This document shows, piece after piece, positions 8,902-58,978 of a stretch of 64,000 nucleotides of DNA (positions within the stretch are counted from its first letter, which is position 1; every line of letters begins with the position of its first letter). The position numbers and the translations under genes were made by a program. The stretch is taken from positions 450,420-514,419 of the forward strand of contig OZ220488.1 in the NCBI GenBank assembly GCA_965116155.1, read 5' to 3'. The notes under the pieces were generated by a model. The model worked only from the letters and a program-made list of their open reading frames with translations. It did not search any database and had not been told where the DNA came from. Source of the DNA: Bdellovibrionales bacterium. Lineage in GTDB: Bacteria > Bdellovibrionota > Bdellovibrionia > Bdellovibrionales > UBA1609.

Positions 8902-9008
8902 CCTATGAGGGGCGCGTCAAAATCCCTTAGCGCGCGTGACAGATATGCAACATTGCGTTACTAGATGTGTGTTTTTTAGATGGTTTTCAGCAGTTAGGAG
9001 TTTTTAAT

Positions 9009-11234: not shown

Positions 11235-11431
11235 CCCAAACACTTTGGCCAGAAAGCGCAGGCCCTTGCTAGCCCCATAGGGGTGTGGCAAGGCGGGTCA
11301 ACCCCTTATAAATTGGACAGTTTTTAGTGAACTTTTTGGAGGATAGAAGGTCAGGGGGCCCGCCGCTGTGGGGAGGGTATAGGCTTAGAAATTTACCTGC
11401 CCTTATTTCCTCAAGCCCTCAAGCAAGGCGC

Positions 11432-11993
11432 GTTGCTTAACCACAAAGAAAGTGCTAAAAAGCAACAAAAAAATATACTGCGAAATGACTAAAAACGAGG
11501 GATGCCGCCCTATAAGGAACCCTACAAGGAAAAGCGTAAATGAAAAAACTTTTGTGTGCGTTTTTGATTTTGTTTTTGTGCTCGTATGCTTGGGCAGGTA
11601 AAGGCATACGCGGTGACTATTGGGGCAAGCCCAAAGCAGCTAGTGATCCAATAAACTTGCCGGATTCTGTTAAAAATATGCTGGATGCAGAGGTTCTGAC
11701 AGGCGCTATGCTGCCTCTTTTTTGGGCCATTAAACACAAAGATTACGCTCTTGTAAAAACTTTGCTAAACCACAAAATAGATATCAATGCTCAAGATGCC
11801 CAAGGCCGCACGGCTCTTATGCAGGCGGTGCAAATGCCTAACTATGCAGATATTGAGACTTTGTTGGGCCATGCCGGCGTTGATATTAACCAAACAGACG
11901 ACCATGGCAAAACGGCTCTTTTTTGGGCTGCGCAAAGGGGCAGATTGCACTTTATAAAAACTTTATTAAATAGTGGCATTGATGTTAACGCCA
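11432..11993 (+). repeat. Segmental duplication, copy 1 (leader, signal peptide and first three ANK repeats), paralogous to 49435-49995
   Basis: By manual alignment, 11613-11993 and about 49612-49995 differ at about 8 positions in ~380 bp. The upstream ~110 bp and the signal-peptide region are more diverged but clearly homologous. Confidence 0.85.
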
Positions 11994-12679
11994 GGGGCGA
12001 ATATGGCAATACAGCTCTTATTTGGGCGGCGTATAACGGGCATGAAGAGTCTGTGCAGGCTCTTTTAGCTCATAAAGATATTGATGTTAACGCCAAGGAC
12101 GATGCTGGCGATACAGCGCTTATTTTGGCTGCGAGCAGAGGGAATGAAGAATCTGTACAAGCTCTTTTGGCTCATGAAGATATTGATGTTAATGCTAAGG
12201 GCGAATGTGGCTATACAGCGCTTAGTTGGGCTGCGCGTAACAGGCATGAAGAGTCTGTGCAGGCTCTTTTAGAACATAAAGATATTGATGTTAACGCCAA
12301 GGACGGTGATGGCAATACAGCGCTTATTTGGTCTGCGCGCAGAGGGCATGAAGAGTCTGTGCAGGCTCTTTTAGCTCATAAAGATATTGATGTTAATGCC
12401 AAGGACGGTGATGGCAATACAGCGCTTATTTGGGCTGCGTATGAAGGGCATGAAGAGTCTGTGCAAGCTCTTTTAGCGCGTAAAGATACTGATGTTAACG
12501 CCAGGGGCGAATATGGCTATACAGCGCTTTTTTGGGCTGCGCATGACGGGCGTGAAGCGCTTGTAGGGATTTTGCGAGAGCATGGGGCTATTAATGCTGG
12601 CACAATAGAAAAACCTGGCGCTGTGAACGTGCTTTTACAGCGTGGCAAATCACTCTGCACAAAGTTATTACAAAGTTAG
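11540..12679 (+). CDS. Secreted ankyrin-repeat protein (9 ANK repeats)
   Basis: It has the Sec signal peptide MKKLLCAFLILFLCSYAWA-GKG. Repeats follow of the form G-x-TAL-x-x-AA-x-x-GHEESVQALLAHKDIDVNAKxxx. The stop codon TAG (12677-12679) lies inside repeat module A. Confidence 0.9.
   Translation: MKKLLCAFLILFLCSYAWAGKGIRGDYWGKPKAASDPINLPDSVKNMLDAEVLTGAMLPLFWAIKHKDYALVKTLLNHKIDINAQDAQGRTALMQAVQMPNYADIETLLGHAGVDINQTDDHGKTALFWAAQRGRLHFIKTLLNSGIDVNARGEYGNTALIWAAYNGHEESVQALLAHKDIDVNAKDDAGDTALILAASRGNEESVQALLAHEDIDVNAKGECGYTALSWAARNRHEESVQALLEHKDIDVNAKDGDGNTALIWSARRGHEESVQALLAHKDIDVNAKDGDGNTALIWAAYEGHEESVQALLARKDTDVNARGEYGYTALFWAAHDGREALVGILREHGAINAGTIEKPGAVNVLLQRGKSLCTKLLQS
12005..12600 (+). repeat. 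In-frame 102-bp (34-aa) near-identical tandem ANK repeat array within ank1
   Basis: Units start at 12005, 12107, 12209, 12311, 12413 and 12515. The core CATGAAGAGTCTGTGCAGGCTCTTTTAGCTCATAAAGATATTGATGTTAA is almost invariant between units. Confidence 0.85.
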
Positions 12680-12870
12680 AGCGCTAGGAAAATGCCATGG
12701 GATTAAGCGCATCTTCCTGATAGCACCTAAAGGTGCGGCCATCAGGAAGATAAGCGTCCCACATGGCATTTTCCGACCTATAAGGCATCTATGGCCCTGC
12801 GGGATTGTGCGATCGTTAGGCACAAGGCGTCCAGACTTGCGTCAAAGTCCCGTACGTTGAGCAAACAAAA
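12676..12870 (+). repeat. Modular palindromic intergenic repeat, full A-B-C unit
   Basis: Module A is TTAGAGCGCTAG at 12676-12687. Module B is a long hairpin at 12687-12774 (GGAAAATGCCATGGGA..TCCCACATGGCATTTTCC, with inner stem TCTTCCTGAT/ATCAGGAAGA). Module C runs from CCTATAAGG.. through GCGTCAAAGTCCCGTACGTTGAGCAAACAAAA. Confidence 0.85.
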
Positions 12871-13062
12871 ATTAGAGCGCTAGCGAAATTCTCTGGGATA
12901 AGCGCGTGAGCATAAAGGTGTGTCAGTCTTCACAACAAGGTAACATTGCTGGCGCTTTTATGCTTACGCCTTTAGGCGAACGCACCACATCCTGCGTCTC
13001 ACCCATGTCCCACTGGCAGGCGCCAAAGGCGCCGGATACCAGTGGGACCAACAGCAGCGCGT
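12871..13062 (+). repeat. Second repeat unit: module A, left arm of module B, inverted pair of module E, and module D hairpin
   Basis: ATTAGAGCGCTAGCGAAATTCTCTGGGATAAGCGCG starts at 12871. GCGTGAGCATAAAGGTG (12904-12920) is paired with GCGCTTTTATGCTTACGC (12952-12969). Module D GTCCCACTGG..CCAGTGGGAC lies at 13007-13048. Confidence 0.8.
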
Positions 13063-16219: not shown

Positions 16220-16667
16220 TGCGTAAGCATAAAAGTGGCCCCTTGAAATTTTGGGCGGGTAGCGTAACCACCTGCCACCCTTTGCAGGGTGCTAAGCAGG
16301 TGGTAAGCGAAAAGTCCCAGGATTTCAAGGGAGAACAGGATAGCTCGCAGTATCGCACGGGACTTTGACGGCAGTCTGGTCGCGATAGGCCTAAAGATCG
16401 CCTATCGCTACAGGCTCATAGTAGCCTTTAGCTGTCTAGTGCACAAAAATGCCTCAGGCAGGACCACTTGTCTACCTGATGGCCCGCGCCCAAGGGCGCT
16501 ATCAGGTAGACTGCGTAGGGCTGAGAGCATTTTTGTTGGCACTTTTATGCTTACGCCATAGCCCGCGAAATTCTCTGTGGGACGCTTGGCGCCATCGCAG
16601 CAGCACCCTTTCAGGGTGCTGCTCTTGCGCCGCCGCTTATCCCAGAGAATTTCGCTAGCACTCTGAC
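16220..16667 (-). repeat. Composite repeat region in minus orientation, filling the der-yajC spacer
   Basis: Read on the minus strand after the der stop, it runs GTCAGAGTGCTAGC (A-like), then a B hairpin (16575-16655). Next comes a 346-bp segment bounded by a perfect 17-bp inverted pair GCGTAAGCATAAAAGTG (16221-16237 / 16550-16566). That segment holds a B-variant (about 16441-16546), module C (about 16337-16430) and a nested hairpin (16239-16331). Confidence 0.85.
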
Positions 16668-18104
16668 TTAACGGCTAAAAAAGCCCACCCTCACCGGAAC
16701 ATCCCTCCAGCCCCAACGCTCCTGCAAAGATTTTGTCAAAAATCTTCTGTAAGTAGCCCTCACCCCACGCGGGTAATTTGCAAACACCATAAAACTTGGC
16801 GGCACCTGCCGCGACTGAGTAATATAATAAAACTTTAAACTCTTAGTGCCCCACAGACCCGCAGGCGTGCCCTGGGTCAGCTTTGCAAAATAGCGGTTCA
16901 GCACCCCTGTAGGCACCCGCTGGCAAGCCCGTGCCTGAAGCTCGCGCGTGCCGCGCAGCACCTTTAATAAACCCGTTCCCTTAAGAGCGCTTACAAAATA
17001 ACAGGGCATATGCGGAAAAAAACTGAGCACACCCCTAAAAGACTTCCTCCGCTCTGTAAGGGAGTGTTGCGATGCGTCGCACTTGTTGGCCACTAATACA
17101 AATAGCTTGCGCTCCTCTATAAGCCTTTGCACCATCCGCGCCTCAAAGTCCCCCACTCCTTGGCGCACGTCGCAAACCACCAGCACCACATCAGCCTGTT
17201 TGATGGCATGCCAACTTTTATACGACGCAAGCAGCCCCAAAACATCGCCTGCTTTTTTAAACTGCGCCGCACGCCTTAAGCCTGCGGTGTCTATGATTTC
17301 AAACTCCCCTGCTTGTGGATGGTAAAACGCAGCGCTTGTGCTGTCGGTTGTTGTGCCCGCGCGGGGCGCCACCAAGCAGCGGTCAAATCCCAAAAATGCA
17401 TTGCACAAAGAGCTCTTGCCCACATTGGGCTTGCCCACCAAACACAACCTAATGCGAGCCGCTGGATTACACTGCGCTTGCAGCTCAGCATGAACGGCAC
17501 TACCTGACAAGGGATTTTGGTTGGCGCCTTTACTACAAGCGTGTGGCAAATCGAGCCCGCTCAGATTACCTTGCTTAAGCCCACCTTTACTTTGCAAGTG
17601 CGGCAATGCGCGCTCTACTACGTCTGCCACACCGTAATCCGAAGCAAATGCACCCACGAGTATGTTATCCACACCCAAAGCATAAAAAGGCGCCAGCATA
17701 GCCGCCTGTGCCTCAGCCTTTAAAGGCTTGTCCACCTTGTTAACCACCAAAACATAAGGCACGCCCCGCGCGCGCACGAGGCGCATCAGCTCCTCCTCTT
17801 CAACACCCACCCCCTTACGCGCATCCAAAACAAACACCACAAAATCTAGTGCCAACGCCTCAAAGCCCCGCACCCTGAGCGCGCCCTGCGCACTACTAAA
17901 CCCGCCCGTATCCACTACCTCAAAGTCACACCCCCACCAATGTGCGCAGCCGAAAATAAAATCCCGCGTCACGCCAGGCATATCTCGCACCAAAGCCTGT
18001 TTGCGCCGTACCAAAGCATTAAAAAGCGTGCTCTTGCCCACATTGGTACACCCTACCAAGCACATTCGAGCCACAGGCGCGCCCTTATTGGGATGAGTCT
18101 GCAT
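16668..18104 (-). CDS. der: Ribosome-associated GTPase Der/EngA (two GTPase domains plus a KH-like C-terminus)
   Basis: It has two P-loops (GCTNVGKST and GKPNVGKSS), DTGG/DTAG and NKVD/NKCD boxes, and a C-terminal KH-like region. It overlaps the rnc stop by 20 nt. Confidence 0.85.
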   Translation of the reverse strand: MQTHPNKGAPVARMCLVGCTNVGKSTLFNALVRRKQALVRDMPGVTRDFIFGCAHWWGCDFEVVDTGGFSSAQGALRVRGFEALALDFVVFVLDARKGVGVEEEELMRLVRARGVPYVLVVNKVDKPLKAEAQAAMLAPFYALGVDNILVGAFASDYGVADVVERALPHLQSKGGLKQGNLSGLDLPHACSKGANQNPLSGSAVHAELQAQCNPAARIRLCLVGKPNVGKSSLCNAFLGFDRCLVAPRAGTTTDSTSAAFYHPQAGEFEIIDTAGLRRAAQFKKAGDVLGLLASYKSWHAIKQADVVLVVCDVRQGVGDFEARMVQRLIEERKLFVLVANKCDASQHSLTERRKSFRGVLSFFPHMPCYFVSALKGTGLLKVLRGTRELQARACQRVPTGVLNRYFAKLTQGTPAGLWGTKSLKFYYITQSRQVPPSFMVFANYPRGVRATYRRFLTKSLQERWGWRDVPVRVGFFSR

Positions 18105-23893: not shown

Positions 23894-24538
23894 ATGAAAT
23901 ACTTTATGGTGCTTGTTAGCGAAAATAAAGAAACCCTCAGCCGCCTGCAGGACATTATGCAGCAAAGCGGACAGCCCATAAAATCAGGGACTTTTTCTGA
24001 AAGCCAATGGATCCAGTACTCTCAGATACCCAATTTTATGGCACGCCTAACAAACGAAAACCTCTTAGGGCAGTACCAGGCCGCTAACTACCAGCCGGCT
24101 TATGCCAAAAAGTCTAAAGCAAGCAACCTGCCCCAAGGTATAAACGCCACATCGCACCTACGCCTATTGCCACGCTCTGAGCACCAAGCGGTATCCACCA
24201 ATACCCTAACGCAAAACACACACACTAAAGGGCCACAGTCTCCAGCAGTACCCTGGCAGGGCCTTATGGGGCAAAAGCCCACCCCTCAAGCACCCGAAGC
24301 CGCAGCAACAAAGGACGGGCAGGGCTTTTTTAAAAAATCCCCTCCCATGTGTTCTATGAACGAGGTCCAGGCTCAGGCCATTTACTCGGCTTTGGTTGAA
24401 AGCGGAGGCAATGTCAGCAAAACAGCTAAAATTTTAAAACTCGGGCGTGCCACCCTTTACAGAAAAGTGCAACAATACGGCATAGAAATCTCAGACATCC
24501 GATCTTGGAACAGGACAAGCTACAAAAAAGCAAGTTAG
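23894..24538 (+). CDS. Fis-family helix-turn-helix DNA-binding protein (no receiver or AAA+ domain recognisable)
   Basis: The C-terminal SALVESGGNVSKTAKILKLGRATLYRKVQQYGI is an NtrC/Fis-type HTH. The ATG at 23894 follows AGGAAG. The longest ORF (from 23480) runs through the divergent promoter region and is rejected. The stop codon lies in repeat module A. Confidence 0.7.
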   Translation: MKYFMVLVSENKETLSRLQDIMQQSGQPIKSGTFSESQWIQYSQIPNFMARLTNENLLGQYQAANYQPAYAKKSKASNLPQGINATSHLRLLPRSEHQAVSTNTLTQNTHTKGPQSPAVPWQGLMGQKPTPQAPEAAATKDGQGFFKKSPPMCSMNEVQAQAIYSALVESGGNVSKTAKILKLGRATLYRKVQQYGIEISDIRSWNRTSYKKAS

Positions 24539-24734
24539 AGCGCTAGCCGCATGCTCTGGTCCAAGCGCCGTCTGCCTGATAGTCCCCACAGGGGACGATC
24601 ATCAGGTAGACAAGCGCCCCACAGAGCATGGGGCGGCCTATAAGGCTTCTATGAGCCTGTAGCCTTGGGTGTTCGGTAGACCCAAGGCGGCCACACTCCC
24701 GTCAAAGCCCCGTGCGATGGGCAAACACAAGTTA
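24535..24734 (+). repeat. Modular palindromic intergenic repeat, cleanest A-B-C unit, spanning stop codon to stop codon
   Basis: Module A is TTAGAGCGCTAGC at 24535-24547. Module B is a long hairpin at about 24550-24630. Module C lies at 24635-24731 (GGCCTATAAGG..GCCTGTAGCCTTGGGTG..ACCCAAGG..CCGTCAAAGCCCCGTGCGATGGGCAAACACAAG) and directly abuts the dacB stop at 24732-24734. Confidence 0.9.
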
Positions 24735-26138
24735 ACGCGTGAGTTCTTTAATTAAGTTGTCCATAAAGGCACGCGCACTGTTGGTTTTGGGGCCGTTGTA
24801 GAAAAAAGCAAACACCCGCTCAGCGCCGCTGCAAGGCGTACGCACATAGCCCGCTAGTGATGCCACACCCGAAAGCATACCCGTTTTTGCCCGAACCAAC
24901 GAGCTTACATCCGGCATGCGCCCGCTCAGCGAGCCCTCCCCACCGCCCACGGCCAAAGCCGACCGAAACTCCACACCCAAGCGCAAGTGCTGGCCCATCT
25001 TGCTTAAAAACTCCCCCACATCCGCGGGGCGAAAGCGGTTTTTTCTCGATAAACCCGAAGCACTATGCACCTGAAAATCCTTTAAGCCCTTAGATTTTAT
25101 ATAATCCGTAAGCACCCTCAAGCCTGCCCCAGGCTGCTTTTGTACCTTTAGCCCCAGGTGCGATACCAGCATCTCAGCCATGGCGTTATTTGAAAATCTC
25201 ATAAAGCCCTTTAGTATATCCTTTAAAGCAAGGCTTTTATGCGATGCTAAAAGCCTAGCCCCTTGTGGCGCCTCACCCACGCGCAGCCCACTACGCACCG
25301 CAACCCCTCGCTCCTCTAAAAAGGCCTTAAAATTCCAAGCACTCCAGCAGGCTGGGTCACCCACAATACTGCGGTACCAAAGGCGCTCCTTTGAACCCAG
25401 CGCCACCTGCCCCGACACATGCAGCTCACCTGCGCCTATACAGCGCCCGTTTTTTTGTGTGCCTGGGATCACCTGTATTTTTGTTTGTGCCCGCGCAGCA
25501 CGGCGCACCGTTAGCGCCTTGTTGCGCACAGTGAGCAGCCCATCCATAGGATCTAAACGGATGCGCGCTTTATCGCCCACTTGCTCACCCGGCCCCAGGC
25601 GCACATTGACCACGCTCCAGTTAAAGTTCATAGCACCAACAGGCGCATTATAAGCCCTTTGCAAAGAGGCTAGCCCACGCCCAGATCGATCGCGGCTCCA
25701 GCGGAACAGGCTGTCATCCACCACAATATCTTCCACCTCTAAAGGGCCCCAGCGCAAAAGTTCCTGCACCAAAAGCCACATAGACTCTGATACAAAGCTA
25801 GGATCCCCACCTCCCACCAAGTAAAGATCCCTAGCGCCACTGGGGGCCACAGGGCCTGCGCGCACCTGGGTCACAAAGCGCTCCTCGGCACCCAAAAGCT
25901 CCAAAGCCGCCCCCGAAACAAACAGCTTGGTCACAGAGGCCGGAATAAACGCCCGCCCCTCATTCAGCCCCCAAGCCTTAGGCCCAGGCCCAGGACAAAC
26001 ACCACCCCCATCACCCACAGGCCCCAAGTAAAGCCCCAGGTGCTGCTTAAGCAGGCCATGCTTTTTTAAGTTTTTATCTAAAAATGCGCTCCACTCCGGC
26101 GCCGCCCAGACTGGCCCAGCACCCAAAAGCATAAGCAT
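24732..26138 (-). CDS. dacB: D-alanyl-D-alanine carboxypeptidase/endopeptidase (PBP4, peptidase S13)
   Basis: SxxK (ASVTKLF), SxN (FSNNAMAE) and KTG (RAKTGML) boxes. The start is uncertain. The longest ORF reaches 26378 but overlaps the divergent lspA-like gene; the ATG at 26138/26132 gives a short signal peptide (MLMLLGAGPVWA-AP). Confidence 0.8.
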   Translation of the reverse strand: MLMLLGAGPVWAAPEWSAFLDKNLKKHGLLKQHLGLYLGPVGDGGGVCPGPGPKAWGLNEGRAFIPASVTKLFVSGAALELLGAEERFVTQVRAGPVAPSGARDLYLVGGGDPSFVSESMWLLVQELLRWGPLEVEDIVVDDSLFRWSRDRSGRGLASLQRAYNAPVGAMNFNWSVVNVRLGPGEQVGDKARIRLDPMDGLLTVRNKALTVRRAARAQTKIQVIPGTQKNGRCIGAGELHVSGQVALGSKERLWYRSIVGDPACWSAWNFKAFLEERGVAVRSGLRVGEAPQGARLLASHKSLALKDILKGFMRFSNNAMAEMLVSHLGLKVQKQPGAGLRVLTDYIKSKGLKDFQVHSASGLSRKNRFRPADVGEFLSKMGQHLRLGVEFRSALAVGGGEGSLSGRMPDVSSLVRAKTGMLSGVASLAGYVRTPCSGAERVFAFFYNGPKTNSARAFMDNLIKELTR

Positions 26139-26223
26139 AAAAACCCAGGCCAATGGCCCCTTTAGGTGCTTAGAACTTTTGGCACGCCCGTAAGTATGGG
26201 TAAATAATAAAAGGGCACAACTT

Positions 26224-27219
26224 ATGAGCGCTAACATTCCACAACCCCCCGCTGCCGATGCTGCTGCCATGCGACCCAGAGACTGGGCTTGGGTGGTTGG
26301 CGTTTTGCTCGGCACTTGGTTATTTGACTTTATCAGCAAAAGCCTCGTGTACCAAGGCCTGCAACTGCCACCCGGCACCCATATCCAGTTGGGGCCGTTT
26401 TATGTGGTGCAGCACCTTAACCCCGGCATGATGCTAGGGAGTTTTTCCACTCTGCCACCTATTATACGCAACGTAAGCCTTTGCACACTGGGGGCGTTTT
26501 TGTTTAGCCTTTACTGCGCCACTCAGTACCTTATGGTGCAGCGCTTCTTTTGGCTGCGCGTAGGCTTGTCGCTTTTTATGGCAGGTATATTGGGCAATAT
26601 TAGTTGCCGAGTGCTGTTTGGCAGCGTTGTTGACATACTGGTAGTGGATTTAGGTTTTTTCCGCACAGCGGCATTTAATGCTGCCGACCTTGTGCAGTGG
26701 GTGGCTTGGCCCATTTTGGTGGTGCAAATTATAAAGCACGCCGAATACTTTTGGCCTGAGCGAGACAAACGCGGCAGTAAAAAAGTTTTGTCCCAATTTC
26801 AAAACCACCACACAGCCGTTTTGCTCAGCATTGCAACAGCGTTTTGCCTTTTAAGCGGCATGCTAGGGTACAGCTTTTTAAAAAACGCCCTACTAAGTCC
26901 CGAGCAGTCAGACCTATTGCTAGAGGCTTTTTTAACTTCTCATATCATGACGAGCCTTGTATTTTTTGTAGCCTTGTTTTTATTTGGCAGAAGGCTTAGC
27001 ACGCGCATTGCGGGGCCTCTATACGCGCTGAAGCGTTTTGTGAACTCTTTACACAAAGGGGCAAAGCCTAAATTTCAGCTCCGAAAAGGCGACCACTTTG
27101 CTAAGTACCTGCACACACTGGCTCAAGACCTTAAAAAAAGCCAAGCCCGCAAATCCGCGCGGCCAGCCAAGCGCACACCCCGCAACGCACTAAAACGCCC
27201 AACAACCAAGAAATCATAA
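26224..27219 (+). CDS. Signal peptidase II (LspA)-like membrane protein lacking one catalytic Asp, fused to 2 TM segments, a HAMP-like segment and a basic tail
   Basis: LspA boxes are NPGMMLGSF, GILGNISCRVLFGSVVD (canonical GNxxDR reads GNISCR; the Cys codon TGC is at 26605-26607) and FNAADLV (intact). Two further TM helices follow, then RRLSTRIAGPLYALKRFVNSLHKG..FAKYLHTLAQDLKK (HAMP-like). Confidence 0.65.
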   Translation: MSANIPQPPAADAAAMRPRDWAWVVGVLLGTWLFDFISKSLVYQGLQLPPGTHIQLGPFYVVQHLNPGMMLGSFSTLPPIIRNVSLCTLGAFLFSLYCATQYLMVQRFFWLRVGLSLFMAGILGNISCRVLFGSVVDILVVDLGFFRTAAFNAADLVQWVAWPILVVQIIKHAEYFWPERDKRGSKKVLSQFQNHHTAVLLSIATAFCLLSGMLGYSFLKNALLSPEQSDLLLEAFLTSHIMTSLVFFVALFLFGRRLSTRIAGPLYALKRFVNSLHKGAKPKFQLRKGDHFAKYLHTLAQDLKKSQARKSARPAKRTPRNALKRPTTKKS

Positions 27220-30845: not shown

Positions 30846-30906
30846 TGCGTATTAGCCGATAGTCCTGCTAGGGGGTGTGTGCTTGGTATGCGCGCAGGCG
30901 GGTCCT

Positions 30907-32385
30907 ATGGGAAAATCTCAAAAAACACCCAAACAGCCGCAAAGTCCCTTGGCAGTCTTTAATACTAACAAGGTGTTTTTGGTTTTTTTGATAGGTGCGT
31001 GCTTTTTTTTGCCTATCGTGTATAGCTCTTGCGAAGATATAGAGTTTGTAAAACGCCCTGGCAAAATAGACACCACCCCACCTAATATAACAATTAACAC
31101 TCAAAAAAGCGTTAGCTCTATTACCGAGCAAGATACGGCTAAGGTTTATTTTGTGGCAAAAGACGGGGACTCGGGCGTGGCAAAAACTCTATGCCGCGCA
31201 GCACAGGTGGACGCCATAGAAGATGAAAAGTTTGGGCGCTGTAAAAGTCCATTTATAATCAACATACTGCAAGGCAACTATCAGTTTGAAGTAAAAGCCT
31301 TGGACAAAGAAGACAACGAAAGCTCTGTTGCAACACATAATTGGTGCCGCGGCCCTATGTGTGGTCGCATAGCGCATACTGGCAGCTTGCACAGCAGCGT
31401 TCAAAATGACAAGGTTGGGATTTTATTTGTTGTAGACAACTCTAGCTCTATGAAAAAAGAACACCGAGCTCTTTCTAAACACACGCCCCAGTTTTTGGAC
31501 CGATTTTCAGATTTGGATTATAAAGTCGCTGTAAGTGTTACGGATTATCATTTAGAAAAAAACGCCGAGCACCCTTTTAGGCCTATTGTATCAGGAAGCG
31601 ACTGCGCTTCGCACCGCACAGTAGAATCATCTGGTGCAACGGCTTTTGTTATAGACTCCCAAAATGCAGACCTTGCACAGGCGGCGGTGGATTTGTCGGC
31701 TACGATTATCTGTGTAGGGACTAAAGGGCATAGTGAAGAAAGCGGATTGGGTAGTTTTTTAAATTTGGTAAATGCTTATGATAGTAGCAATGCAGAAGCT
31801 CGCTCTTCTAATGGGCTTAATTTTTTTGATAACTTACAACACCTGGTGGTAGTTCTGATTACAGACGAAGGTGACAGATTTGTGCATAGAGAAGGCTTGT
31901 CCGCTGACGATATAAAAACCCGCTTCCACACAGTGTTTCCGGATACGGCTTTTTTGTGGCATTCTTTTGTGCAAATGAAGCATGTAATTAACTCTCATCC
32001 CCGATTTAAAGGGATGTACCTGTACAAGGATATAGCGGACCTCACCCAAGGCAGCGTACAGGATGTTTTAGACACTGCAGCTTATGGCACCGTGCTGACT
32101 GGTATTGCAGATTTAACACGCAAGCATATTATACGCGCGCGTTTACAGTGTGCGCCGGTGAACTACCAAAACCCACAGGACTACGATCCTGAAAACCCTG
32201 AGCACCGCTTGATGGAGGTTTTAGATTCACAAGGCACGCCCCTTAGTCCTCAGCCTATGTGCAAAATCGATCGTCACCTTAAAGTGCAGTGCTTTAGCTG
32301 CAGTGATCCACAAGACCTCGATACATGCGACACCCCATTAGATGCAGGCGAGTATACTCTTAAGTACCAATGTTTAGCCAATTAG
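30907..32385 (+). CDS. Lipoprotein with one Cys-paired Ig-like module and a vWA domain with an intact MIDAS motif
   Basis: The signal/lipobox-like sequence is FLVFLIGACFFLPIVYSS-C. The Ig-like module is ..LCRAAQ..CKSPFIINILQGNYQFEVKALDKEDNES... The vWA motifs are ILFVVDNSSSM (DxSxS) and VVVLITDEGD. It is a paralogue of the C-terminal half of 2332-6687. The stop codon lies in repeat module A. The longest ORF starts at 30877. Confidence 0.75.
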   Translation: MGKSQKTPKQPQSPLAVFNTNKVFLVFLIGACFFLPIVYSSCEDIEFVKRPGKIDTTPPNITINTQKSVSSITEQDTAKVYFVAKDGDSGVAKTLCRAAQVDAIEDEKFGRCKSPFIINILQGNYQFEVKALDKEDNESSVATHNWCRGPMCGRIAHTGSLHSSVQNDKVGILFVVDNSSSMKKEHRALSKHTPQFLDRFSDLDYKVAVSVTDYHLEKNAEHPFRPIVSGSDCASHRTVESSGATAFVIDSQNADLAQAAVDLSATIICVGTKGHSEESGLGSFLNLVNAYDSSNAEARSSNGLNFFDNLQHLVVVLITDEGDRFVHREGLSADDIKTRFHTVFPDTAFLWHSFVQMKHVINSHPRFKGMYLYKDIADLTQGSVQDVLDTAAYGTVLTGIADLTRKHIIRARLQCAPVNYQNPQDYDPENPEHRLMEVLDSQGTPLSPQPMCKIDRHLKVQCFSCSDPQDLDTCDTPLDAGEYTLKYQCLAN

Positions 32386-32837
32386 AGCGCTAGCTGCGTA
32401 AGCATCAGAGTGCTAGCCACATGTTCTGGGCTAAGTGCGTAAGCATAAAAGTGTTAGTGAGGGTGCCATGGCCAGAGAGCGCCGCCGATTGCGCACCTTC
32501 AGGTGCACAAGGCAAGCGGTCCATGCCAGGGCGCCCTCACGTGCTGGATAAAGCGCAGTCTCCCTGATAGTCCCTGCAAGGGACGACCATCAGGGAGATA
32601 AGCGCCCCACAGAACATGTAGCGACCTATGAAGCTACTATGGCCCTGTAGCGAAGTGCGTAAGCATAAAAGCCTAGTCTGAGCATTTGAGCAATGAGTGC
32701 AGTCCTCTTGGGAACATCCTGCAAGGATGAAAAACCCAGGAGGACAAACGACAGACTCAAATGCTCAGGCGGGCTAGAAAGAAGGGCCAAAGGCCCGCAG
32801 CGACCACACTTACGTCAAAGCCCCTTGCATTGAGCAA
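32382..32837 (+). repeat. Mosaic/nested repeat region (modules A, E, B and C with internal insertions)
   Basis: Module A occurs twice (32382-32394 and 32407-32418). The left arm of B (ACATGTTCTGGGCTAAG) is interrupted by GCGTAAGCATAAAAGTG (32437-32453) plus a hairpin insert and then resumes at ..CTGGATAAAGCGC. Module C is split by GCGTAAGCATAAAAGCC (32657-32673) plus a ~100-nt hairpin insert (TGAGCATTTGAG..CTCAAATGCTCA). Confidence 0.8.
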
Positions 32838-32876
32838 CACAAACTAATTAAAAGCTACGCTTTTAATTAGTTTGTG
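32838..32876. terminator. 18-bp perfect hairpin straddling the pilQ stop codon
   Basis: CACAAACTAATTAAAAGC (32838-32855), loop TAC, GCTTTTAATTAGTTTGTG (32859-32876). The pilQ stop TAA (32867-32869, minus strand) is inside the right arm. Confidence 0.65.
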
Positions 32877-40620: not shown

Positions 40621-40666
40621 ACCCAATTAGGTGCATAAACATTTAGGGTTATGCATCTAATTGGGT
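40621..40666 (-). terminator. 17-bp hairpin (one G.T) straddling the gspE stop codon
   Basis: ACCCAATTAGGTGCATA (40621-40637) pairs with TATGCATCTAATTGGGT (40650-40666) across a 12-nt loop. The right arm encodes the last codons TQLDA plus the stop (40649-40651). Confidence 0.55.
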
Positions 40667-42328
40667 GTTCGCCAAGACTTCTTCAATGGTCGTGATACCA
40701 TGGAGTACTTTACTAATTCCATGGTCCCTAAAGGTTCGCATGCCCAGCTCAATGGCGCGCTTTTTTATTGCCCCTGAGTCCACTTTTTGCATCACCAGCG
40801 TACGTATCTCTTCATTCACTAGCAAAAGCTCTTGTATCACGGTTCTGCCAAGATAGCCTTTTTCGCCACACTCACGGCATCCTTTAGCCCTATAAATTTG
40901 CGCGCCTTTTATGTCTTCTTTTTTTAACTCAATGCTATCTAGCTCTGCCTGCGAAGGCTCATAAAGCTCTTTGCAATGAGGGCATATGACCCTCACTAAC
41001 CTTTGCCCCACAACCCCCAAAAGACTCGTTGCAATTAAAAACGGCTCACAACCCATATCGATCAAGCGCGGAAACACTCCAGCAGAGTCGTTTGTGTGTA
41101 TAGTGGAAATAACCAAATGCCCCGTAAGAGAAGCATTAATAGAAATCTCTGCTGTTTCTAAGTCTCTAATTTCACCCACCATAATTACGTTAGGGTCCTG
41201 CCGCAAAATGCTTCTTAATCCTGCCGCAAAGCTGAGGCCAATTTTGGAGTTCACCTGTATCTGGCCTATGCCATGTATACGCTGCTCTACGGGATCTTCT
41301 ACTGTGACAATGTTTTTATCTGCACTGTTAATGTAACTCAGTGCCGCATACAAAGAGGTCGACTTACCACTACCCGTAGGACCTGTTACCAAAATGATCC
41401 CGTATGTGCGCTTTAGTAGCTCTTTCATTTCTGTTAAACTATGCGTATCAAAACCCAATTGCTCTAAGTCCAACACCACATTAGATCGATCTTGCAATCT
41501 TAACACTATGCGCTCACCAAAAGCCGTTGGCACCGTGCTTAAACGCACGTCAATATCCTTGCCAGCTAGCTTTAAAGGTATGCGTCCATCTTGGGGGAGG
41601 CGTTTTTCTGCAATATTCAAATTCCCCATCACCTTAATGCGCGAAGTAATTGCATTTTGTAGTCTTTTAGGAGGCTTGAAAATATCAAACAAAATACCAT
41701 CCACCCTAAAACGCACGACCATAGATTTTTCGTAAGGCTCTATGTGTATGTCAGAGGCTTTTTCCTTAACCGCCCGAAACAGCAAAGTGTTAACTAACTT
41801 AATAACCGGCGCATCGTCATCACCGGCTTCTAAAAGATCAATTACAGGGTCGTCTAGATCGTACTCTTCGCTTTCGATTTCATCCAAACCCTCTAGACCT
41901 GTGGTGCTTTTTTCATAAACCCTATTAATGGCCTCTTGCACCTTATGCACCGTACTAACAATAGGCTTAACGGGTTTTTGAAAAATTGCCCGCATATCCT
42001 CTAAAATGCTGTAATTTAACGGGTTAGCAACCAGCACCTCCACTGCCTTGGTGCTGTCTTTAAAGGGCAAAATATTATGTGCCTTTGCATAGGCTATAGG
42101 AATATCCCGCACCAGATCAGCAGAAATATCCCCATACGGAATGCTTGCTAAAAACCGCACCCCCAAATGCCCACACAGCACGCCCACTGCCTGCTCAGGA
42201 GTAGAGAAGCTGTGCTTTTTCATATGATCCGCTATAGGCACGCCCTCATCGCCCAATAACGCAAGCGCCATTGAGAGCTGTTTTTCACTCATAGAAGTGC
42301 TTTTTACTATCAGGTTTTCAAAAGCCAT
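40649..42328 (-). CDS. gspE: Type II secretion ATPase GspE
   Basis: It has a T2SE N-terminal domain, Walker A GPTGSGKST, Asp/His boxes and a tetracysteine motif CPHC..CRECGEKGYLGR. It lies directly downstream of gspD. Confidence 0.85.
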   Translation of the reverse strand: MAFENLIVKSTSMSEKQLSMALALLGDEGVPIADHMKKHSFSTPEQAVGVLCGHLGVRFLASIPYGDISADLVRDIPIAYAKAHNILPFKDSTKAVEVLVANPLNYSILEDMRAIFQKPVKPIVSTVHKVQEAINRVYEKSTTGLEGLDEIESEEYDLDDPVIDLLEAGDDDAPVIKLVNTLLFRAVKEKASDIHIEPYEKSMVVRFRVDGILFDIFKPPKRLQNAITSRIKVMGNLNIAEKRLPQDGRIPLKLAGKDIDVRLSTVPTAFGERIVLRLQDRSNVVLDLEQLGFDTHSLTEMKELLKRTYGIILVTGPTGSGKSTSLYAALSYINSADKNIVTVEDPVEQRIHGIGQIQVNSKIGLSFAAGLRSILRQDPNVIMVGEIRDLETAEISINASLTGHLVISTIHTNDSAGVFPRLIDMGCEPFLIATSLLGVVGQRLVRVICPHCKELYEPSQAELDSIELKKEDIKGAQIYRAKGCRECGEKGYLGRTVIQELLLVNEEIRTLVMQKVDSGAIKKRAIELGMRTFRDHGISKVLHGITTIEEVLANTQLDA

Positions 42329-45689: not shown

Positions 45690-45717
45690 CCTCTCGGTTC
45701 AGAATACCATTAGCATA

Positions 45718-45849
45718 ATTAGAGTGCTAGCCACATGCTCTGGGATAAACGCAGTCTGCCTGATAGTCCCTGAAAAGGGACGGCCATCAGGTAGACAAGT
45801 GCCCCTGGTATCCGGCCCTTCGGGCCTGCCAGGCAGGCATGGTGAGACG
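45718..45849 (+). repeat. Repeat unit: module A plus module B, whose right outer arm is replaced by or merged with an inverted module D
   Basis: The sequence starts with TTAGAGTGCTAGCCACATGCTCTGGGATAAACGC. The inner stem follows: TCTGCCTGAT (45755-64), apex AGTCCCT-GAAA-AGGGACG, then ATCAGGTAGA (45786-95). It ends with TGGTATCCGGCCCTTCGGGCCTGCCAGG..CATGGTGAGACG. Confidence 0.8.
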
Positions 45850-50639: not shown

Positions 50640-50862
50640 ACAGGCCCATAAAAGCGCCAGCAATATTGCCTTGAACCTTAGAGTGCAGCCATCTTGGCAG
50701 CCCACAGGGTGTTAGCCAAGATGGCAAACAAAGTCTTCAAGGTAATATTGCTGGCGCTAGACAGCTACCAACACGCCGATAGCTTTGGGGGCTCTCTAAC
50801 CCCAAAGCGTCCAAACTCACTTAACCTAGCACGCCGCCGCTTAGTCCCAGAGAATTTTATCA
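50640..50862 (-). repeat. Rearranged member of the intergenic repeat family downstream of the VKOR-DsbA gene
   Basis: A 23-bp stem AGCGCCAGCAATATTGCCTTGAA (50653-75) / TTCAAGGTAATATTGCTGGCGCT (50736-58) encloses an 11-bp stem GCCATCTTGGC/GCCAAGATGGC. The linker CTAGACAGCTA follows. On the minus strand, TAAAATTCTCTGGGACTAAGCGG (left arm of B) starts right after the stop at 50860-62. Confidence 0.7.
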
Positions 50863-52101
50863 GTCCTTTAAATTGTTCAAGTGGCTGTAAAGTGTCTCTA
50901 GCACGACCAAGCTTTGGCCTTGACTGAGGTATTTGGCGTTTACAAAAATACTAGGCGTCGCATCCACACCCCAGCTTGCGCCAAACTCTGCATAAGACTC
51001 TATGGCCTTTTTGGCTTCTTCGCCCTCAGCGCACGCAAACCACTGCTCCACCTGAGCCATTGGTGCACCAACAGAAACAGGCAGTGCCTCTTGTAGATGC
51101 TCCTTGGCTCCCTTTACACCTGACACTCTCTGCAAAGCCTCTTGATGCTCAAAAATGGCATCAAATACCGGCCACGCATAAGCCGTATCCTGAGCGGCAC
51201 ACCAATGCAGCTGCGACAAAAAGCAGCTCTTAAAGCTCTTGCGCGGCACGTTTTTGTTGCATGCCCCATCTAAAGGGTACGGATAAAACGCAAAGCTCAC
51301 CCCCGGGCGCGAAAGCACAAAGGCCTTTAAGCTCGGTACGGCTCTTTTGCAATGAGCACATAAAAAATCCGCAAATTCCACCACCCGCATTCCAGCCTCG
51401 GCCTCCCCCTTAAAAGCCACAGGGTCCAAAGCCTCAGGCTTAGCCTTGGCCGATTGCCACTCTTCTAAAGAGTATTGGGCAATTTTAGACATATCCCGCA
51501 CCCCATAGCGCGACATAAAGCTTCTGTTTAAAGTCAGCGACGCAGCAGGAGCCAAAAGCAGCGCCAGCACCAAAACCTTAGGCGCGGGCAGCCAGAATTT
51601 TGCATCTGCCATATCACACTTGGGCCGCCCTTTATGCGCCCACCAAGCACAGGCACAGGTTACAAAAGAGCACACATAAGCTCCTACACAAAACAAACAC
51701 CAAGAGCCTACAAAAACCTGCGACACCACAGCCATAACCACGCTTACACCGGCCACAAAGCTCGACAGATAAAGCACATAACGCCCCAAAAGGGCCTGAT
51801 TTTCGCTCCATCCCATTAGCCAAAAACCCCACAGCCCCAATAGTAACCCGTTAAAACCCACGCCCCAAAGTGACATAGGCACACCCCAAAGCGCAGAAAA
51901 AGAGCTCGCCCAAGCGGCTTCACAACTAAAGCCCTCGCCCACAGAGCACAGGCTCGCACCCGCAACCGTGCCAGACAAAAGCCCAAAATACTCCACACTC
52001 AAATACAAGTGCAGCCCAACGCTTATAAGCTGCGAAACTGCAGCCAGCACCACAGGGCCCTTGTTAAACTGTTTGTCTGTTGCACTTGCGGATAAAAACA
52101 C
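50860..52101 (-). CDS. Vitamin K epoxide reductase (VKOR) domain fused to a DsbA-like thioredoxin domain
   Basis: The VKOR loop cysteines are CSVGEGFSC, the TM CxxC is WCLFC, and the SALWGVP motif is present. The C-terminal half carries FADFLCAHCKR (thioredoxin-fold CxxC). Confidence 0.8.
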   Translation of the reverse strand: MFLSASATDKQFNKGPVVLAAVSQLISVGLHLYLSVEYFGLLSGTVAGASLCSVGEGFSCEAAWASSFSALWGVPMSLWGVGFNGLLLGLWGFWLMGWSENQALLGRYVLYLSSFVAGVSVVMAVVSQVFVGSWCLFCVGAYVCSFVTCACAWWAHKGRPKCDMADAKFWLPAPKVLVLALLLAPAASLTLNRSFMSRYGVRDMSKIAQYSLEEWQSAKAKPEALDPVAFKGEAEAGMRVVEFADFLCAHCKRAVPSLKAFVLSRPGVSFAFYPYPLDGACNKNVPRKSFKSCFLSQLHWCAAQDTAYAWPVFDAIFEHQEALQRVSGVKGAKEHLQEALPVSVGAPMAQVEQWFACAEGEEAKKAIESYAEFGASWGVDATPSIFVNAKYLSQGQSLVVLETLYSHLNNLKD

Positions 52102-58688: not shown

Positions 58689-58978
58689 CAACAACTCACT
58701 CAATGCACGGGGCTTTGACGTCAGTGTGGCAAATGGAGTCACGTTTCATTCACTTGCTTTGAGCAAGACCAGGCACAGGCGACTTTGTTTTTCCTCAATC
58801 TAGAAAATTTTCACTTACAGGTACGCACTTAGACTCCATTTGCAGGGCCACAAATAGCTGTCTAGCGCGTAAAAACACTTTGAGTGAGAACCTCGCTTAC
58901 CTCAATCGGCATGCATTCTTACAGAATGCCTACCGAGAGGCTACGCTTTTAATCAAAGTGTTTTTACTGGCGCTTTTA
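58689..58978 (-). repeat. Full composite repeat in minus orientation, spanning from the ferredoxin stop to the coiled-coil gene stop
   Basis: Read on the minus strand, it begins AATTAAAAGCGCCAG, an A-like box that contains the ferredoxin stop. A 15-bp-stem long hairpin follows (58869-58883 / 58953-58967). Then come CTAGACAGCTA and an inserted hairpin bounded by GCAAATGGAGTC/GACTCCATTTGC. It ends with module C ..CCACACTGACGTCAAAGCCCCGTGCATTGAGTGAG, abutting the TAG at 58686-58688. Confidence 0.75.

What the first reader, a model, noticed from the sequence alone, without database searches (positions are those of the whole stretch)
32379..32394. The repeat's A box (A[AG]TTAGAG[CT]GCTAGC) supplies the last sense codon and the stop codon of unrelated genes
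Three unrelated plus-strand genes end inside the same 15-mer. These are ank1 (..CAA AGT TAG AGCGCTAGG, 12677-79), the Fis-HTH gene (..GCA AGT TAG AGCGCTAGC, 24536-38) and the Ig/vWA lipoprotein (..GCC AAT TAG AGCGCTAGC, 32383-85). The giant lipoprotein reads through a 1-mismatch copy in another frame (GTT AGA ACG CTA GAG CAA TAG, 6668-6687) and so gains 3 extra codons. astA stops 6 nt before its copy. der (minus strand) stops as TAA GTCAGAGTGCTAGC. The ferredoxin gene ends in a variant, AAT TAA AAGCGCCAG. The box carries TAG in two frames on one strand and TAG/TAA on the other. This means the element boundary overlaps coding 3' ends. One explanation is that the element targets stop-codon contexts (TTAG/TAG). 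The other is that its insertion replaced the native C-termini.
Basis: seen in the sequence. Interest (0 to 1): 0.6.

Follow-up and report, generated by a model that had tools for sequence, protein, structure and literature searches.

The report
Hairpin repeat box closing gene ends
The 15-base "A box" is the first arm of a roughly 200-base hairpin-forming repeat that sits flush against the ends of many unrelated genes in this very gene-dense genome and supplies their last one to four codons and stop codon without changing protein length, which is a new sequence family but a known kind of phenomenon.

Summary
The A box (ARTTAGAGYGCTAGC) occurs 9 times at up to 2 mismatches, against 0.73 expected. 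ank1, the Fis-HTH gene and the lipoprotein gene all end at its first TAG at the stated coordinates.

The box is the 5' arm of the basal helix of a modular ~200-nt repeat: a 112-nt hairpin, a GTAG-headed hairpin and a tail. At least 12 copies or fragments lie in the 64 kb. Base pairing is strongly supported (94% of cells paired, 31 of 53 pairs with double changes). It is almost purely Watson-Crick with no strand bias, which points to a DNA-level hairpin repeat (REP/BIME/MITE-like) rather than an RNA gene.

Variant boxes (AATTAAAAGCGCCAG, TTAAAGGACTRR) close further genes, and all three reading frames are used. Wherever it can be tested (Der, ferredoxin, AstA, lipoprotein versus its paralogue, Pfam domain ends), the proteins have native length. 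At most 1-4 codons are element-derived, so large C-terminal replacement is not supported.

A 5-nt ARTTA occurs at both element ends. Two copies exactly fill the gap between convergent stop codons. This fits insertion at stop-like TTA sites but does not prove it. The source genome and relatives could not be reached. Coxiella QMITEs show the same kind of gene-end association.

The parts
32380..32394 (+). Solo A box AATTAGAGCGCTAGC. It supplies AAT TAG (32380-32385) to the Ig/vWA-like lipoprotein ORF 30877..32385.
32403..32850 (+). Full element copy starting with the variant box CATCAGAGTGCTAGC. It is preceded by TGCGTAAGCA and interrupted by two inserted repeat segments (32435-32551 and 32653-32784). 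It ends ..GAGCAACACAAACTAATTA and runs into an 18-bp perfect palindrome that holds the secretin stop.
12674..12873 (+). Full element copy. Its A box AGTTAGAGCGCTAGG supplies AGT TAG to ank1 (11540..12679).
12870..12905 (+). Tandem second copy consisting of the 5' 36 nt only. It is joined to the previous copy at ..AAACAAAAATTAGAGCGC.
24533..24734 (+). Full element copy that fills the whole gap between two convergent genes. Its A box gives AGT TAG to the Fis-HTH gene (stop 24536-38). Its terminal ..CAAGTTA (24732-34) is the reverse complement of the TAA stop of the S13 peptidase gene 24732..26378(-).
62274..62478 (+). Full element copy between astA and the aldehyde dehydrogenase gene. The astA stop is 62268-70, with an in-frame box TAG at 62277-79. 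The right flank TTTACGCGCTAGAAAG looks like a degenerate second box.
16352..16668 (-). Copy after der. A first 5' hairpin (16668-16557, box AGTCAGAGTGCTAGC) is followed by a second copy matching profile positions 3-188 (16547-16352). The der stop TAA (16670-16668) abuts the box.
45717..45805 (+). Truncated copy (5' 90 nt) between the gspC-like gene start and the DctM gene stop, antisense to both. Here the box TAG closes no long ORF.
1999..2200 (+). Degenerate full-length copy with box AATTACAGCACTAAC, in which both TAGs are lost. It overlaps the 5' part of the long minus-strand PP-loop (TilS-like) ORF.
58690..58980 (-). Diverged copy with variant box AATTAAAAGCGCCAGT and an internal insertion. 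It supplies AAT TAA to the ferredoxin gene 58976..59359(-). Its other end abuts the TAG (58686-88) of the convergent ORF 57654..58688.
50830..50873 (-). 5' fragment with variant box AATTTAAAGGACTGAT followed by the canonical AAAATTCTCTGGGACTAAGCGG. The VKOR-DsbA gene 50860..52101(-) reads AAT TTA AAG GAC TGA through it, using the second stop position (frame a).
58677..58689 (+). Variant box TTAAAGGACTAGC at the end of ORF 57654..58688, read as TTA AAG GAC TAG (frame a).
50649..50821 (+). Subfamily-2 copy. It has a different 5' hairpin (ATAAAAGCGCCAGCAATATTGCC.. pairing with ..GGTAATATTGCTGGCGCT) but the same linker and second hairpin. It lies 118 nt after the ank2 stop.
11222..11280 (+). Possible diverged 5' part at the end of the M3 peptidase gene 8967..11234 (..GAG TTT AAA GAC TAG CCCAAACACTTTGG..).
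   Evidence: local alignment score 36 against shuffles 20 +/- 4, maximum 38
6668..6679 (+). TTAGAACGCTAG, one mismatch from the 12-mer core, read as GTT AGA ACG CTA GAG CAA TAG by ORF 2332..6687. It could be a remnant or chance.

Best explanation
The A box is the outermost 5' arm of a family of non-coding, modular, hairpin-forming DNA repeats. Each unit has four parts. The first is a 112-nt hairpin whose base is the A box paired with GCGRCCTATAA. The second is a linker ending in GCCTGTAGC. The third is a second 27-35-nt hairpin. The fourth is the tail CGTCAAAGCCCCGTGCRTTGAGCAAAC(A)CAARTTA. The family has colonised the ends of transcription units in a genome that is about 90% coding. I read it as selfish, non-autonomous DNA of the REP/BIME/REPIN/MITE kind, maintained and probably moved as a folded single DNA strand by an enzyme encoded outside this window.

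Both termini carry stop triplets. TAG occurs in two frames in the box. TTA, the reverse complement of TAA, sits at the right end. TAG and TAA also occur on the other strand of the box. An ORF that runs into a copy is therefore closed at once. In frame b (ART TAG) it gains one codon. In frame a (TTA GAG/AAG NNC TAG/TGA) it gains three codons. In the third frame the two observed genes stop about 5-6 codons after entering the box. The box thus does supply the last 1-4 codons and the stop, but the proteins keep their native length and the insertions are close to neutral.

Steps shown here: the anatomy, the pairing, the non-random coincidence with stops, and the native protein lengths. Steps inferred: mobility, a single-stranded DNA intermediate, and a preference for inserting at A/T-rich ARTTA(A/G) sites, meaning stop codons preceded by T. 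On that model TA|A or TA|G is rebuilt as TA+G on the left and ..TTA+N on the right. I rate the targeting part at roughly even odds against plain purifying selection, or later trimming of short spacers.
For: Copy number is far above chance: 9 boxes against 0.73 expected, and a profile search finds at least 12 copies or fragments in 64 kb.

The structure is supported. The fold z-score is -6.3 on the plus strand and -5.2 on the minus strand. The consensus structure has 94.2% of cells paired, and 31 of 53 pairs carry changes on both sides. None of 500 shuffles reaches this, and slid controls give 34-48% paired.

The pairing is almost purely Watson-Crick: 288 Watson-Crick cells against 5 G.U on the plus strand and 4 A.C, which equal G.U on the minus strand. 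That argues against an RNA-only constraint.

The family behaves like repeat DNA. It is modular, with swapped 5' hairpins, tandem units and nested segments.

It matches no known RNA family: no Rfam hit at gathering thresholds, and only one weak below-threshold match (Plant_SRP, 10.3 bits, E 0.69) to the copy tested at E up to 10. No intrinsic-terminator or promoter signature appears in the copies.

Gene ends sit in the box as follows.
- Frame b: ank1, Fis-HTH, lipoprotein and ferredoxin.
- Frame a: VKOR-DsbA, ORF 57654..58688 and possibly the M3 peptidase.
- Third frame: S13 peptidase and possibly the giant lipoprotein.

The stop association gives P about 1e-8, or about 1e-3 under the generous null. 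Protein lengths are native.

Evidence bearing on targeting. ARTTA is seen at the left junction and at the right end: AGTTA/AGTTA in copy 24533, AATTA/AATTA in 32380, AATTA/ATTTA in 62274. Copies 24533 and 58980 exactly fill convergent stop-to-stop gaps. There are no terminal inverted repeats. Eight of 11 copies lie on the plus strand although only 16 of 43 genes do, p=0.018.

There is a precedent: all functional genes affected by Coxiella QMITEs have the insertion at their 3' ends, without a significant change in protein mass (PMC5896051).
Against: No empty site, polymorphic site or second genome could be obtained, so neither mobility nor a target preference is demonstrated. No transposase or recombinase gene was found among the 30 window ORFs scanned against Pfam.

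Only four copies have both ends intact, so the match of ARTTA variants between the two ends is not statistically meaningful.

If ARTTA were a duplicated native target, five of 43 genes here would natively end ART TAR. That seems too many for a last codon restricted to AAT or AGT (my estimate, not a tool result).

The T of TTA covaries with an internal partner, so it belongs to the stem rather than being simple flank.

One copy lies inside what is normally an operon (astA to the aldehyde dehydrogenase gene), where a purely selfish element might be expected to be costly.

Strong conservation of structure could equally reflect a function in RNA.
Confidence: 0.55

Rival explanations
1. This is a functional 3'-end RNA device. 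The element would be transcribed with the upstream gene and must start at the stop codon. It might act as a U-tract-less terminator, as a barrier to 3' exonucleases, as an RNase III substrate, or as a structure that terminating ribosomes must melt, thereby coupling translation to mRNA fate. The last idea follows what has been reported for E. coli REP sequences lying within about 15 nt of stop codons (own knowledge: Liang, Rudd and Deutscher 2015; not retrieved here).
For: Nine of 11 copies are co-oriented with the gene upstream, and the basal helix starts at or within a few nt of the stop. Structure and covariation are very strong. Copies sit at all six convergent gene junctions of the window. 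RNase III is encoded in the window.
Against: Pairs are Watson-Crick almost exclusively, with equal numbers of G.U-compatible cells on the two strands. Both strands fold equally well. Canonical terminators exist elsewhere, for example 56370-56403, but the copies have no T tract. Some copies are antisense to both neighbours (45717) or lie in a divergent promoter region (1999). Copies are truncated, nested and duplicated in tandem, as junk repeats are. One sits between astA and the next gene of the pathway.
Confidence: 0.15
2. This is the reader's second alternative in its strong form: the element landed well inside the genes and replaced their native C-terminal segments.
For: Similarity among copies starts upstream of the stop, so the last codon (frame b) or the last three to four codons (frame a) are box sequence. 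All three frames are used.
Against: Der, ferredoxin, AstA and the lipoprotein end at the same position as their homologues, within 0-2 residues. Pfam domains are complete up to 4-13 residues from every affected C-terminus.
Confidence: 0.05
3. This is a site-specific recombination cassette. The A box plus the tail would form an att/attC-like site (..CAAR-TTA-GAGCGCTAG..) used by a tyrosine or serine recombinase or an IS110-type enzyme, and copies would integrate into look-alike sites at gene ends.
For: The tandem junction tail-TTA-box is seen intact at 12860-12885, and a box-like sequence follows the right end of copy 62274 (GCGCTAG shared). Left flanks and right flanks of copy 24533 resemble the junction. 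The hairpin has conserved ends, a variable paired centre and bulged bases, which recalls integron attC sites.
Against: There is no RYYYAAC/GTTRRRY pair. No integrase was found among the window ORFs scanned. The neighbouring genes are housekeeping genes rather than a cassette array. The flank resemblance is weak, about 5 of 9 to 10 of 17 positions by my count.
Confidence: 0.05
4. The stops coincide with the repeat by chance, or through mis-called ORF ends.
For: TAG is the commonest stop here (18 of 43), and 16 of the 34 TAA/TAG stops are preceded by T, which raises the background somewhat.
Against: P is about 1e-8 to 1e-3 depending on the null. The ORF ends agree with the deposited proteins P0001, P0002, P0003, P0126 and P0127.
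Confidence: 0.01

Closest known systems
REP / BIME / REPIN elements mobilised by RAYT (TnpA-REP) transposases
   Same: Both are high-copy, non-coding, intergenic palindromic repeats that occur as mosaics and tandem units. The second hairpin here is a 27-35-nt palindrome directly preceded by GTAG in 5 of 8 copies, which matches the REP definition given in PMC8266576. The Watson-Crick-only pairing fits recognition as folded single-stranded DNA.
   Different: The unit here is about 200 nt with a 112-nt first hairpin headed by CTAGC rather than GTAG. There is no REP/iREP pair. No RAYT gene is known, because the genome could not be searched. REPs are not reported to supply stop codons systematically.
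Coxiella burnetii QMITE1/QMITE2 (PMC5896051)
   Same: These are small, highly structured repeats. In all functional annotated genes they affect, they lie at the 3' end, altering the last residues without a significant change in protein mass. They also serve as hot-spots for other insertions.
   Different: QMITEs have terminal inverted repeats and direct repeats and share no sequence with this family. Here the overlap is confined to a defined 15-nt terminal box with built-in stops, and the copies are co-oriented with the genes.
Rickettsia palindromic elements, Neisseria Correia elements, enterobacterial ERIC, pneumococcal BOX (own knowledge, not retrieved here)
   Same: All are structured, non-autonomous repeats that tolerate or exploit overlap with coding regions or 3' untranslated regions. 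BOX elements are modular (boxA-boxB-boxC), like this family.
   Different: RPEs insert in frame inside genes. Correia elements have TIRs and a TA duplication. None shares sequence with this family (no Rfam hit).
IS200/IS605-derived palindrome-associated elements (PATEs)
   Same: Both lack terminal inverted repeats and have subterminal hairpins. In IS200/IS605 the insertion occurs 3' of a short specific sequence that is read by pairing with an internal guide (as summarised in PMC8266576). That would account for the conserved ARTTA on the left, the apparent duplication on the right, the TTA/TAA against TCA/TGA covariation, and the strand bias.
   Different: No TnpA, TnpB or omega-RNA is detectable in the window. 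The partner of the box lies about 100 nt away at the far side of the hairpin rather than just 5' of the hairpin foot. The right-end hairpin is about 45 nt from the end.
Integron attC sites
   Same: Both are imperfect palindromes immediately 3' of ORFs and co-oriented with them, with conserved ends, a variable paired centre and extrahelical bases, and both often overlap stop codons.
   Different: Core sites RYYYAAC/GTTRRRY are absent, no intI was found among the window ORFs scanned, and the neighbouring genes are housekeeping genes.

Membership tests
REP/BIME (RAYT-associated) | A 20-50-nt imperfect palindrome preceded by a conserved tetranucleotide, usually GTAG | tested here: inconclusive
   The second hairpin is preceded by GCCTGTAGC in copies 24533, 62274, 2000, 32403 and 16547. 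It is preceded by TGCGG, GATAG or TGCAA in 12674, 50649 and 58980. The A-box hairpin is 112 nt long and headed by CTAGC, which does not fit.
REP/BIME (RAYT-associated) | Two REPs in inverted orientation (REP + iREP) forming the mobile unit | tested here: not met
   Each unit has a single GTAG-headed hairpin. An inverted GCTACAGGC is seen only beside copy 50649.
REP/BIME (RAYT-associated) | A cognate RAYT/TnpA-REP gene in the genome | not testable with these tools
None was found among the 30 window ORFs scanned with Pfam.
MITE (DDE-transposon derived) | Terminal inverted repeats at the two ends of the unit | tested here: not met
   The left end GAGCGCTAGC.. and the reverse complement of the right end ..GGGCAAACACAAG share no similarity. 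Only the arms of the internal 112-nt hairpin are inverted repeats.
MITE (DDE-transposon derived) | Target-site duplication flanking each copy | tested here: inconclusive
   ARTTA is found at the left junction and the right end in the four intact copies (5/5, 5/5, 4/5 and 4/5 identical). This cannot be told apart from an intrinsic terminal direct repeat.
IS200/IS605-type PATE | No TIR or TSD, insertion 3' of a fixed tetra- or pentanucleotide, subterminal hairpins, and a Y1 transposase | tested here: inconclusive
   The sequence features are compatible: conserved A-R-T-T-A to the left of GAGYGC, and a hairpin starting within 13 nt of the left end. The transposase cannot be tested.
Integron attC | R''/R' core sites RYYYAAC ... 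GTTRRRY, an adjacent intI, and a cassette array | tested here: not met
   The box reads ARTTAGAG and its partner CCTATAAGG. No integrase was found among the window ORFs scanned, and the neighbours are der, astA, a ferredoxin gene and type II secretion genes.
Intrinsic (Rho-independent) terminator | A G+C-rich stem-loop followed by a T tract | tested here: not met
   No terminator-like site lies in type-1 copies, while a canonical one is found at 56370-56403. Only the subfamily-2 hairpin (..GCTGGCGCTTTTATG) has a T run.
Any curated RNA family (Rfam 15) | A match to a covariance model | tested here: not met
   There are 0 matches at gathering thresholds in the whole window. In copy 24533 the only match is a 10-bit Plant_SRP hit, E 0.69.

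The most novel reading that the evidence does not exclude
The element is a stop-codon-seeking mobile hairpin. It would transpose as single-stranded DNA and choose its insertion site, ARTTA followed by A or G (in effect a T-preceded TAA/TAG stop), by base pairing between the target and its own internal CTATAA partner, in the way IS200/IS605 guide sequences work. Its first base, G, would rebuild the stop as TAG, and its last three bases, TTA, would rebuild a convergent TAA. It could then invade gene ends, even overlapping convergent stops, without harming either gene. The covariation TTAGAG/CTATAA against TCAGAG/CTATGA would then reflect retargeting.
Probability: 0.12. Interest if true: 0.7.

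Novelty: new member of a known kind. Interest (0 to 1): 0.35.

Why it matters
The finding shows how a very compact genome can tolerate a dense population of structured repeats. The repeats carry their own stop codons at both termini, so genes can run straight into them.

For annotation, the last 1-4 codons and the stop of about one gene in five in this window are repeat sequence. Gene callers will also produce spurious ORFs across the copies.

If the targeting model holds, this would be a compact example of a mobile element adapted to the stop codon itself as a safe landing site. It would be testable on the complete genome.

In itself, repeat overlap with gene 3' ends has precedents in Coxiella, Rickettsia and Neisseria.

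Tried and rejected
**Searches for further copies**
- A genome-contig scan with GAGYGCTAGYNNNATKYTCTGG gave 9 single hits in unrelated taxa, which are chance matches.
- A metagenome scan with an internal pattern gave 2 hits inside an unrelated coding gene.
- The viral scan gave 0 hits.
- A blastn search against plasmids gave no match.
- An exhaustive protein search with a 61-residue translation of copy 12674 returned only two unrelated repeat-derived ORFs.

**Attempts to reach the source genome**
- Window proteins are in the protein collection, on a 1.61-Mb NCBI/ENA contig.
- The contig look-up nevertheless returns nothing.

**Orthologue test**
- The Fis-HTH protein has no homologue other than itself.
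- The lipoprotein has only a paralogue from the same genome.
- The closest Der homologue found is 37% identical. Its locus (rnc-era-der in a MAG) has no such repeat.

**Other ideas dropped**
- The ank1/ank2 paralogue comparison as an 'empty site' failed because the 3' ends are unrelated.
- An early idea that all in-box stops use one frame, which would argue for stop-codon targeting, was dropped. Variant boxes read in the other two frames were found.
- The RNA gene, riboswitch or ribozyme idea was dropped. There is no Rfam hit at gathering thresholds and the pairing shows no strand asymmetry.
- The terminator and promoter ideas found no consensus support.
- I could not retrieve the paper I recall on REPs close to stop codons.
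Full report
**Observation**

The window reads c AATTAGAGCGCTAGC at 32379-32394. The degenerate 15-mer ARTTAGAGYGCTAGC has 9 matches at up to 2 mismatches against 0.73 expected, and no shuffle reaches 9.

Three plus-strand ORFs end inside the box, at TAG 12677-79, 24536-38 and 32383-85. Pfam identifies the first as an ankyrin-repeat protein and the second as a protein with a Fis-type HTH. The third has only a weak Y_Y_Y match. The deposited Fis-HTH protein (P0001, 214 aa) ends with the same residues as the ORF.

- der stops CGT TAA directly before GTCAGAGTGCTAGC.
- astA stops TAG CAC AAT TAG, so the box TAG is a second in-frame stop.
- The ferredoxin gene ends GGC AAT TAA AAGCGCCAG.

The 'giant lipoprotein' copy is weaker than stated. 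It has 3 mismatches to the 15-mer, and at that level the window has 12 hits against 6.8 expected. In the 12-mer core it has 1 mismatch (7 hits against 0.35 expected, six of them true copies).

**What the box belongs to**

Repeat finding and reading of the copies show that the box is the first 15 nt of a unit of about 200 nt.

- Full copies lie at 12674-12873, 24533-24734 and 62274-62478.
- A degenerate full copy lies at 1999-2200.
- The copy at 32403-32850 carries two inserted segments.
- The copy after der (16668-16352, minus strand) has a duplicated 5' part.
- The copy at 45717-45805 is truncated.
- A 36-nt tandem start lies at 12870-12905.

A profile built from six cleaned copies (alignment A2) finds further members:
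- a subfamily with a different first hairpin at 50649-50821;
- a 5' fragment at 50873-50830 on the minus strand;
- a diverged copy at 58980-58690 on the minus strand, behind the ferredoxin gene.

A second motif, GCGTAAGCATAAAAG (8 hits against 0.41 expected), belongs to the alternative first hairpin. The variant boxes CATAAAAGCGCCAGC, CATCAGAGTGCTAGC and AATTAGAGCGCTAGC are visibly homologous.

**Structure**

A single copy folds far better than shuffles on both strands, with z = -6.3 and -5.2. In the consensus fold the A box (columns 3-15) pairs with GCGRCCTATAA (columns 104-114) and closes a 112-nt hairpin. A second hairpin and an unpaired tail follow.

Counting pairs gives the following:
- 94.2% of cells are paired.
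- 31 of 53 pairs have changes on both sides.
- 0 of 500 shuffles reach these values.
- Slid controls are at 34-48% paired.

The two copies that read TCAGAG instead of TTAGAG carry the compensating CTATGA instead of CTATAA. TTAG is therefore part of the stem.

The pairs are almost purely Watson-Crick. There are 288 Watson-Crick cells, 5 G.U on the plus strand and 4 A.C that would be G.U on the minus strand.

That symmetry favours a DNA-level hairpin repeat over an RNA gene. So do the modular swapping, the nesting, the tandem units and the truncations. Perfect but different inner stems between copies could arise by template switching within quasi-palindromes. That last point is an inference from general knowledge and was not tested here.

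There is no Rfam match at gathering thresholds. The copies show no terminator or promoter signature, although a canonical terminator exists at 56370-56403.

**Extent of the stop overlap**

- The exact 10-mer TTAAAGRACT occurs three times against 0.24 expected, always at a gene end next to a copy.
- The VKOR-DsbA gene reads AAT TTA AAG GAC TGA through a box that is followed by canonical element sequence.
- ORF 57654..58688 reads TTA AAG GAC TAG.
- The S13 peptidase gene reads ATT AAA GAA CTC ACG CGT TAA.
- The M3 peptidase gene ends TTT AAA GAC TAG in front of a probable diverged 5' part.

All three frames are therefore used:
- Frame b (ART TAG/TAA) four times.
- Frame a (TTA NAG NNC stop) three or four times.
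- The third frame once or twice.

Similarity among copies begins sharply two bases before TTA. The box does supply the last codon(s) and the stop.

Exact coincidence of the box stop with a co-oriented gene stop in 4 of 10 independent copies has P about 1e-8 under uniform placement. Under a generous short-spacer null it has P about 1e-3.

**Are the C-termini native?**

- Der ends ..VRVGFFSR, within one residue of the shortest homologues in the alignment.
- The ferredoxin has five residues after the aligned core, as does solved ferredoxin 1dax.
- AstA has 71 residues after the aligned part, against 69 in 1yle.
- The lipoprotein aligns to the very last residue of its only homologue, a paralogue from the same genome (..KYQCLAN* against ..KYQCGAS*).
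- Pfam domains reach to within 4-13 residues of the ends of Der, ferredoxin, VKOR-DsbA, the M3 and S13 peptidases, SecF and the secretin.

Large replacement of C-termini is therefore not supported. At most 1-4 codons are repeat-derived.

**Ends of the element and the targeting question**

There are no terminal inverted repeats. The left junction reads ARTTA|GAGYGC, and the right end is ..CAARTTA:
- AGTTA/AGTTA in copy 24533;
- AATTA/AATTA in 32380-32850;
- AATTA/ATTTA in 62274;
- AGTTA/AATTA in 12674, where the right side is the next tandem box.

Copy 24533 fills the entire gap between two convergent genes. Its TAG closes the Fis-HTH gene, and its terminal TTA (24732-34) is the reverse complement of the S13 peptidase stop. 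Copy 58980 likewise spans exactly from the ferredoxin stop to the stop of the convergent ORF. In copy 32380-32850 the right end runs into an 18-bp perfect palindrome that holds the secretin stop.

These facts fit insertion at TTA(A/G) with the stop rebuilt on both sides. They fit equally an intrinsic terminal direct repeat combined with selection in a genome that is 90% coding, or later loss of short spacers.

Eight of 11 copies lie on the plus strand although only 16 of 43 genes do (p=0.018). This is a weak hint of strand-specific insertion.

**What could not be done**

The element was found nowhere else, and the source genome could not be read beyond the window. No empty site or genome-wide tabulation was possible. 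The lineage appears isolated. The best Der homologue found is 37% identical, with the caveat that only 8000 word-sharing candidates were scored. The Fis-HTH protein and the lipoprotein have no homologues outside this genome.

**Comparison with known systems**

The closest kinds are REP/BIME/REPIN repeats and MITE-like elements. The REP definition (a 20-50-nt palindrome headed by GTAG, arranged in mosaics) is taken from PMC8266576. The second hairpin partly meets it. The A-box hairpin does not.

Coxiella QMITEs provide a direct precedent for structured repeats that sit at gene 3' ends without changing protein size (PMC5896051).

Integron attC sites, intrinsic terminators and curated RNA families were tested and are not met. 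An IS200/IS605-type mechanism is compatible with the sequence features but cannot be tested without the genome.

**Verdict**

The box is the stop-bearing terminal arm of a new, lineage-restricted family of palindromic repeats. The 'replacement' reading fails except for 1-4 codons. The 'stop-context targeting' reading is plausible but unproven. This is a new member of a known kind and is of moderate interest.

Noticed in passing
whole window (43 long ORFs): TAG is the commonest stop codon (18 TAG, 16 TAA, 9 TGA), which is unusual for bacteria. Sixteen of the 34 TAA/TAG stops are preceded by T.
   Followed up: partly
13079-13102 and 45845-45880: Another hairpin family, CCCTAA-stem-loop-stem-TTAGGG, holds the stops of SecF (..AAT GCC TTT AGG CAT TAG GGG) and of the DctM-fusion gene (..AAC ACC TTG CGG TGT TAG GGTTTGC). 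The inner stems differ but stay complementary, so the last ~8 codons of both genes are hairpin sequence.
   Followed up: partly
6780-6870; 40600-40660; 32833-32876: Long perfect palindromes contain stop codons of minus-strand genes. The stop of the transketolase-like E1 beta gene lies in the loop of a ~25-bp palindrome. The gene 40649..42328 ends inside ACCCAATTAG..CTAATTGGGT. The secretin stop lies in an 18-bp palindrome.
   Followed up: no
6713-6773, 13002-13062, 45806-45840 (reverse): A third repeat family (CCCATGTCCCACTGGCAGG-NNNN-AAA-NNNN-CCGGATNCCAGTGGGACCAAC) has a variable palindromic inner stem and again lies in gene 3' flanks.
   Followed up: no
1999-2100 (minus strand): The PP-loop (TilS-like) ORF 1120..2274(-) has its SGGxDS motif about 95 residues in. 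The only upstream ATG (2097-2095) lies inside the degenerate element copy, so the first ~35 codons may be the reverse complement of the repeat. That start is not the one in the public protein set.
   Followed up: partly
16668-18840 and locus L012: The lineage looks isolated. The best non-self Der hit is 37% identical, and the Fis-HTH protein and the lipoprotein have no homologues outside this genome. rnc is directly followed by der here, whereas the closest relative found has rnc-era-der.
   Followed up: partly
11504-12685 and 49506-50531: Two ankyrin-repeat paralogues have 95% identical 5' regions (300 nt) and arrays of 102-nt repeats, but unrelated 3' ends. A third ankyrin gene lies at 54595..56331.
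   Followed up: no
62271-62496: A full element copy occupies the spacer between astA and the aldehyde dehydrogenase (astD-like) gene, genes that are normally co-transcribed. The degenerate second box lies just upstream of the likely ATG.
   Followed up: no
element columns 34-36 and 82-86 (e.g. 24564-24569 and 24611-24616): The hypervariable inner hairpin of every copy is flanked by a direct repeat AAGCG(C/T), as if the variable hairpin were itself a nested insertion or an exchangeable cassette.
   Followed up: no
whole window: GC skew is negative over almost the whole 64 kb (cumulative -3.6), and 27 of 43 long ORFs lie on the minus strand. This suggests the plus strand is the lagging strand here.
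   Followed up: no
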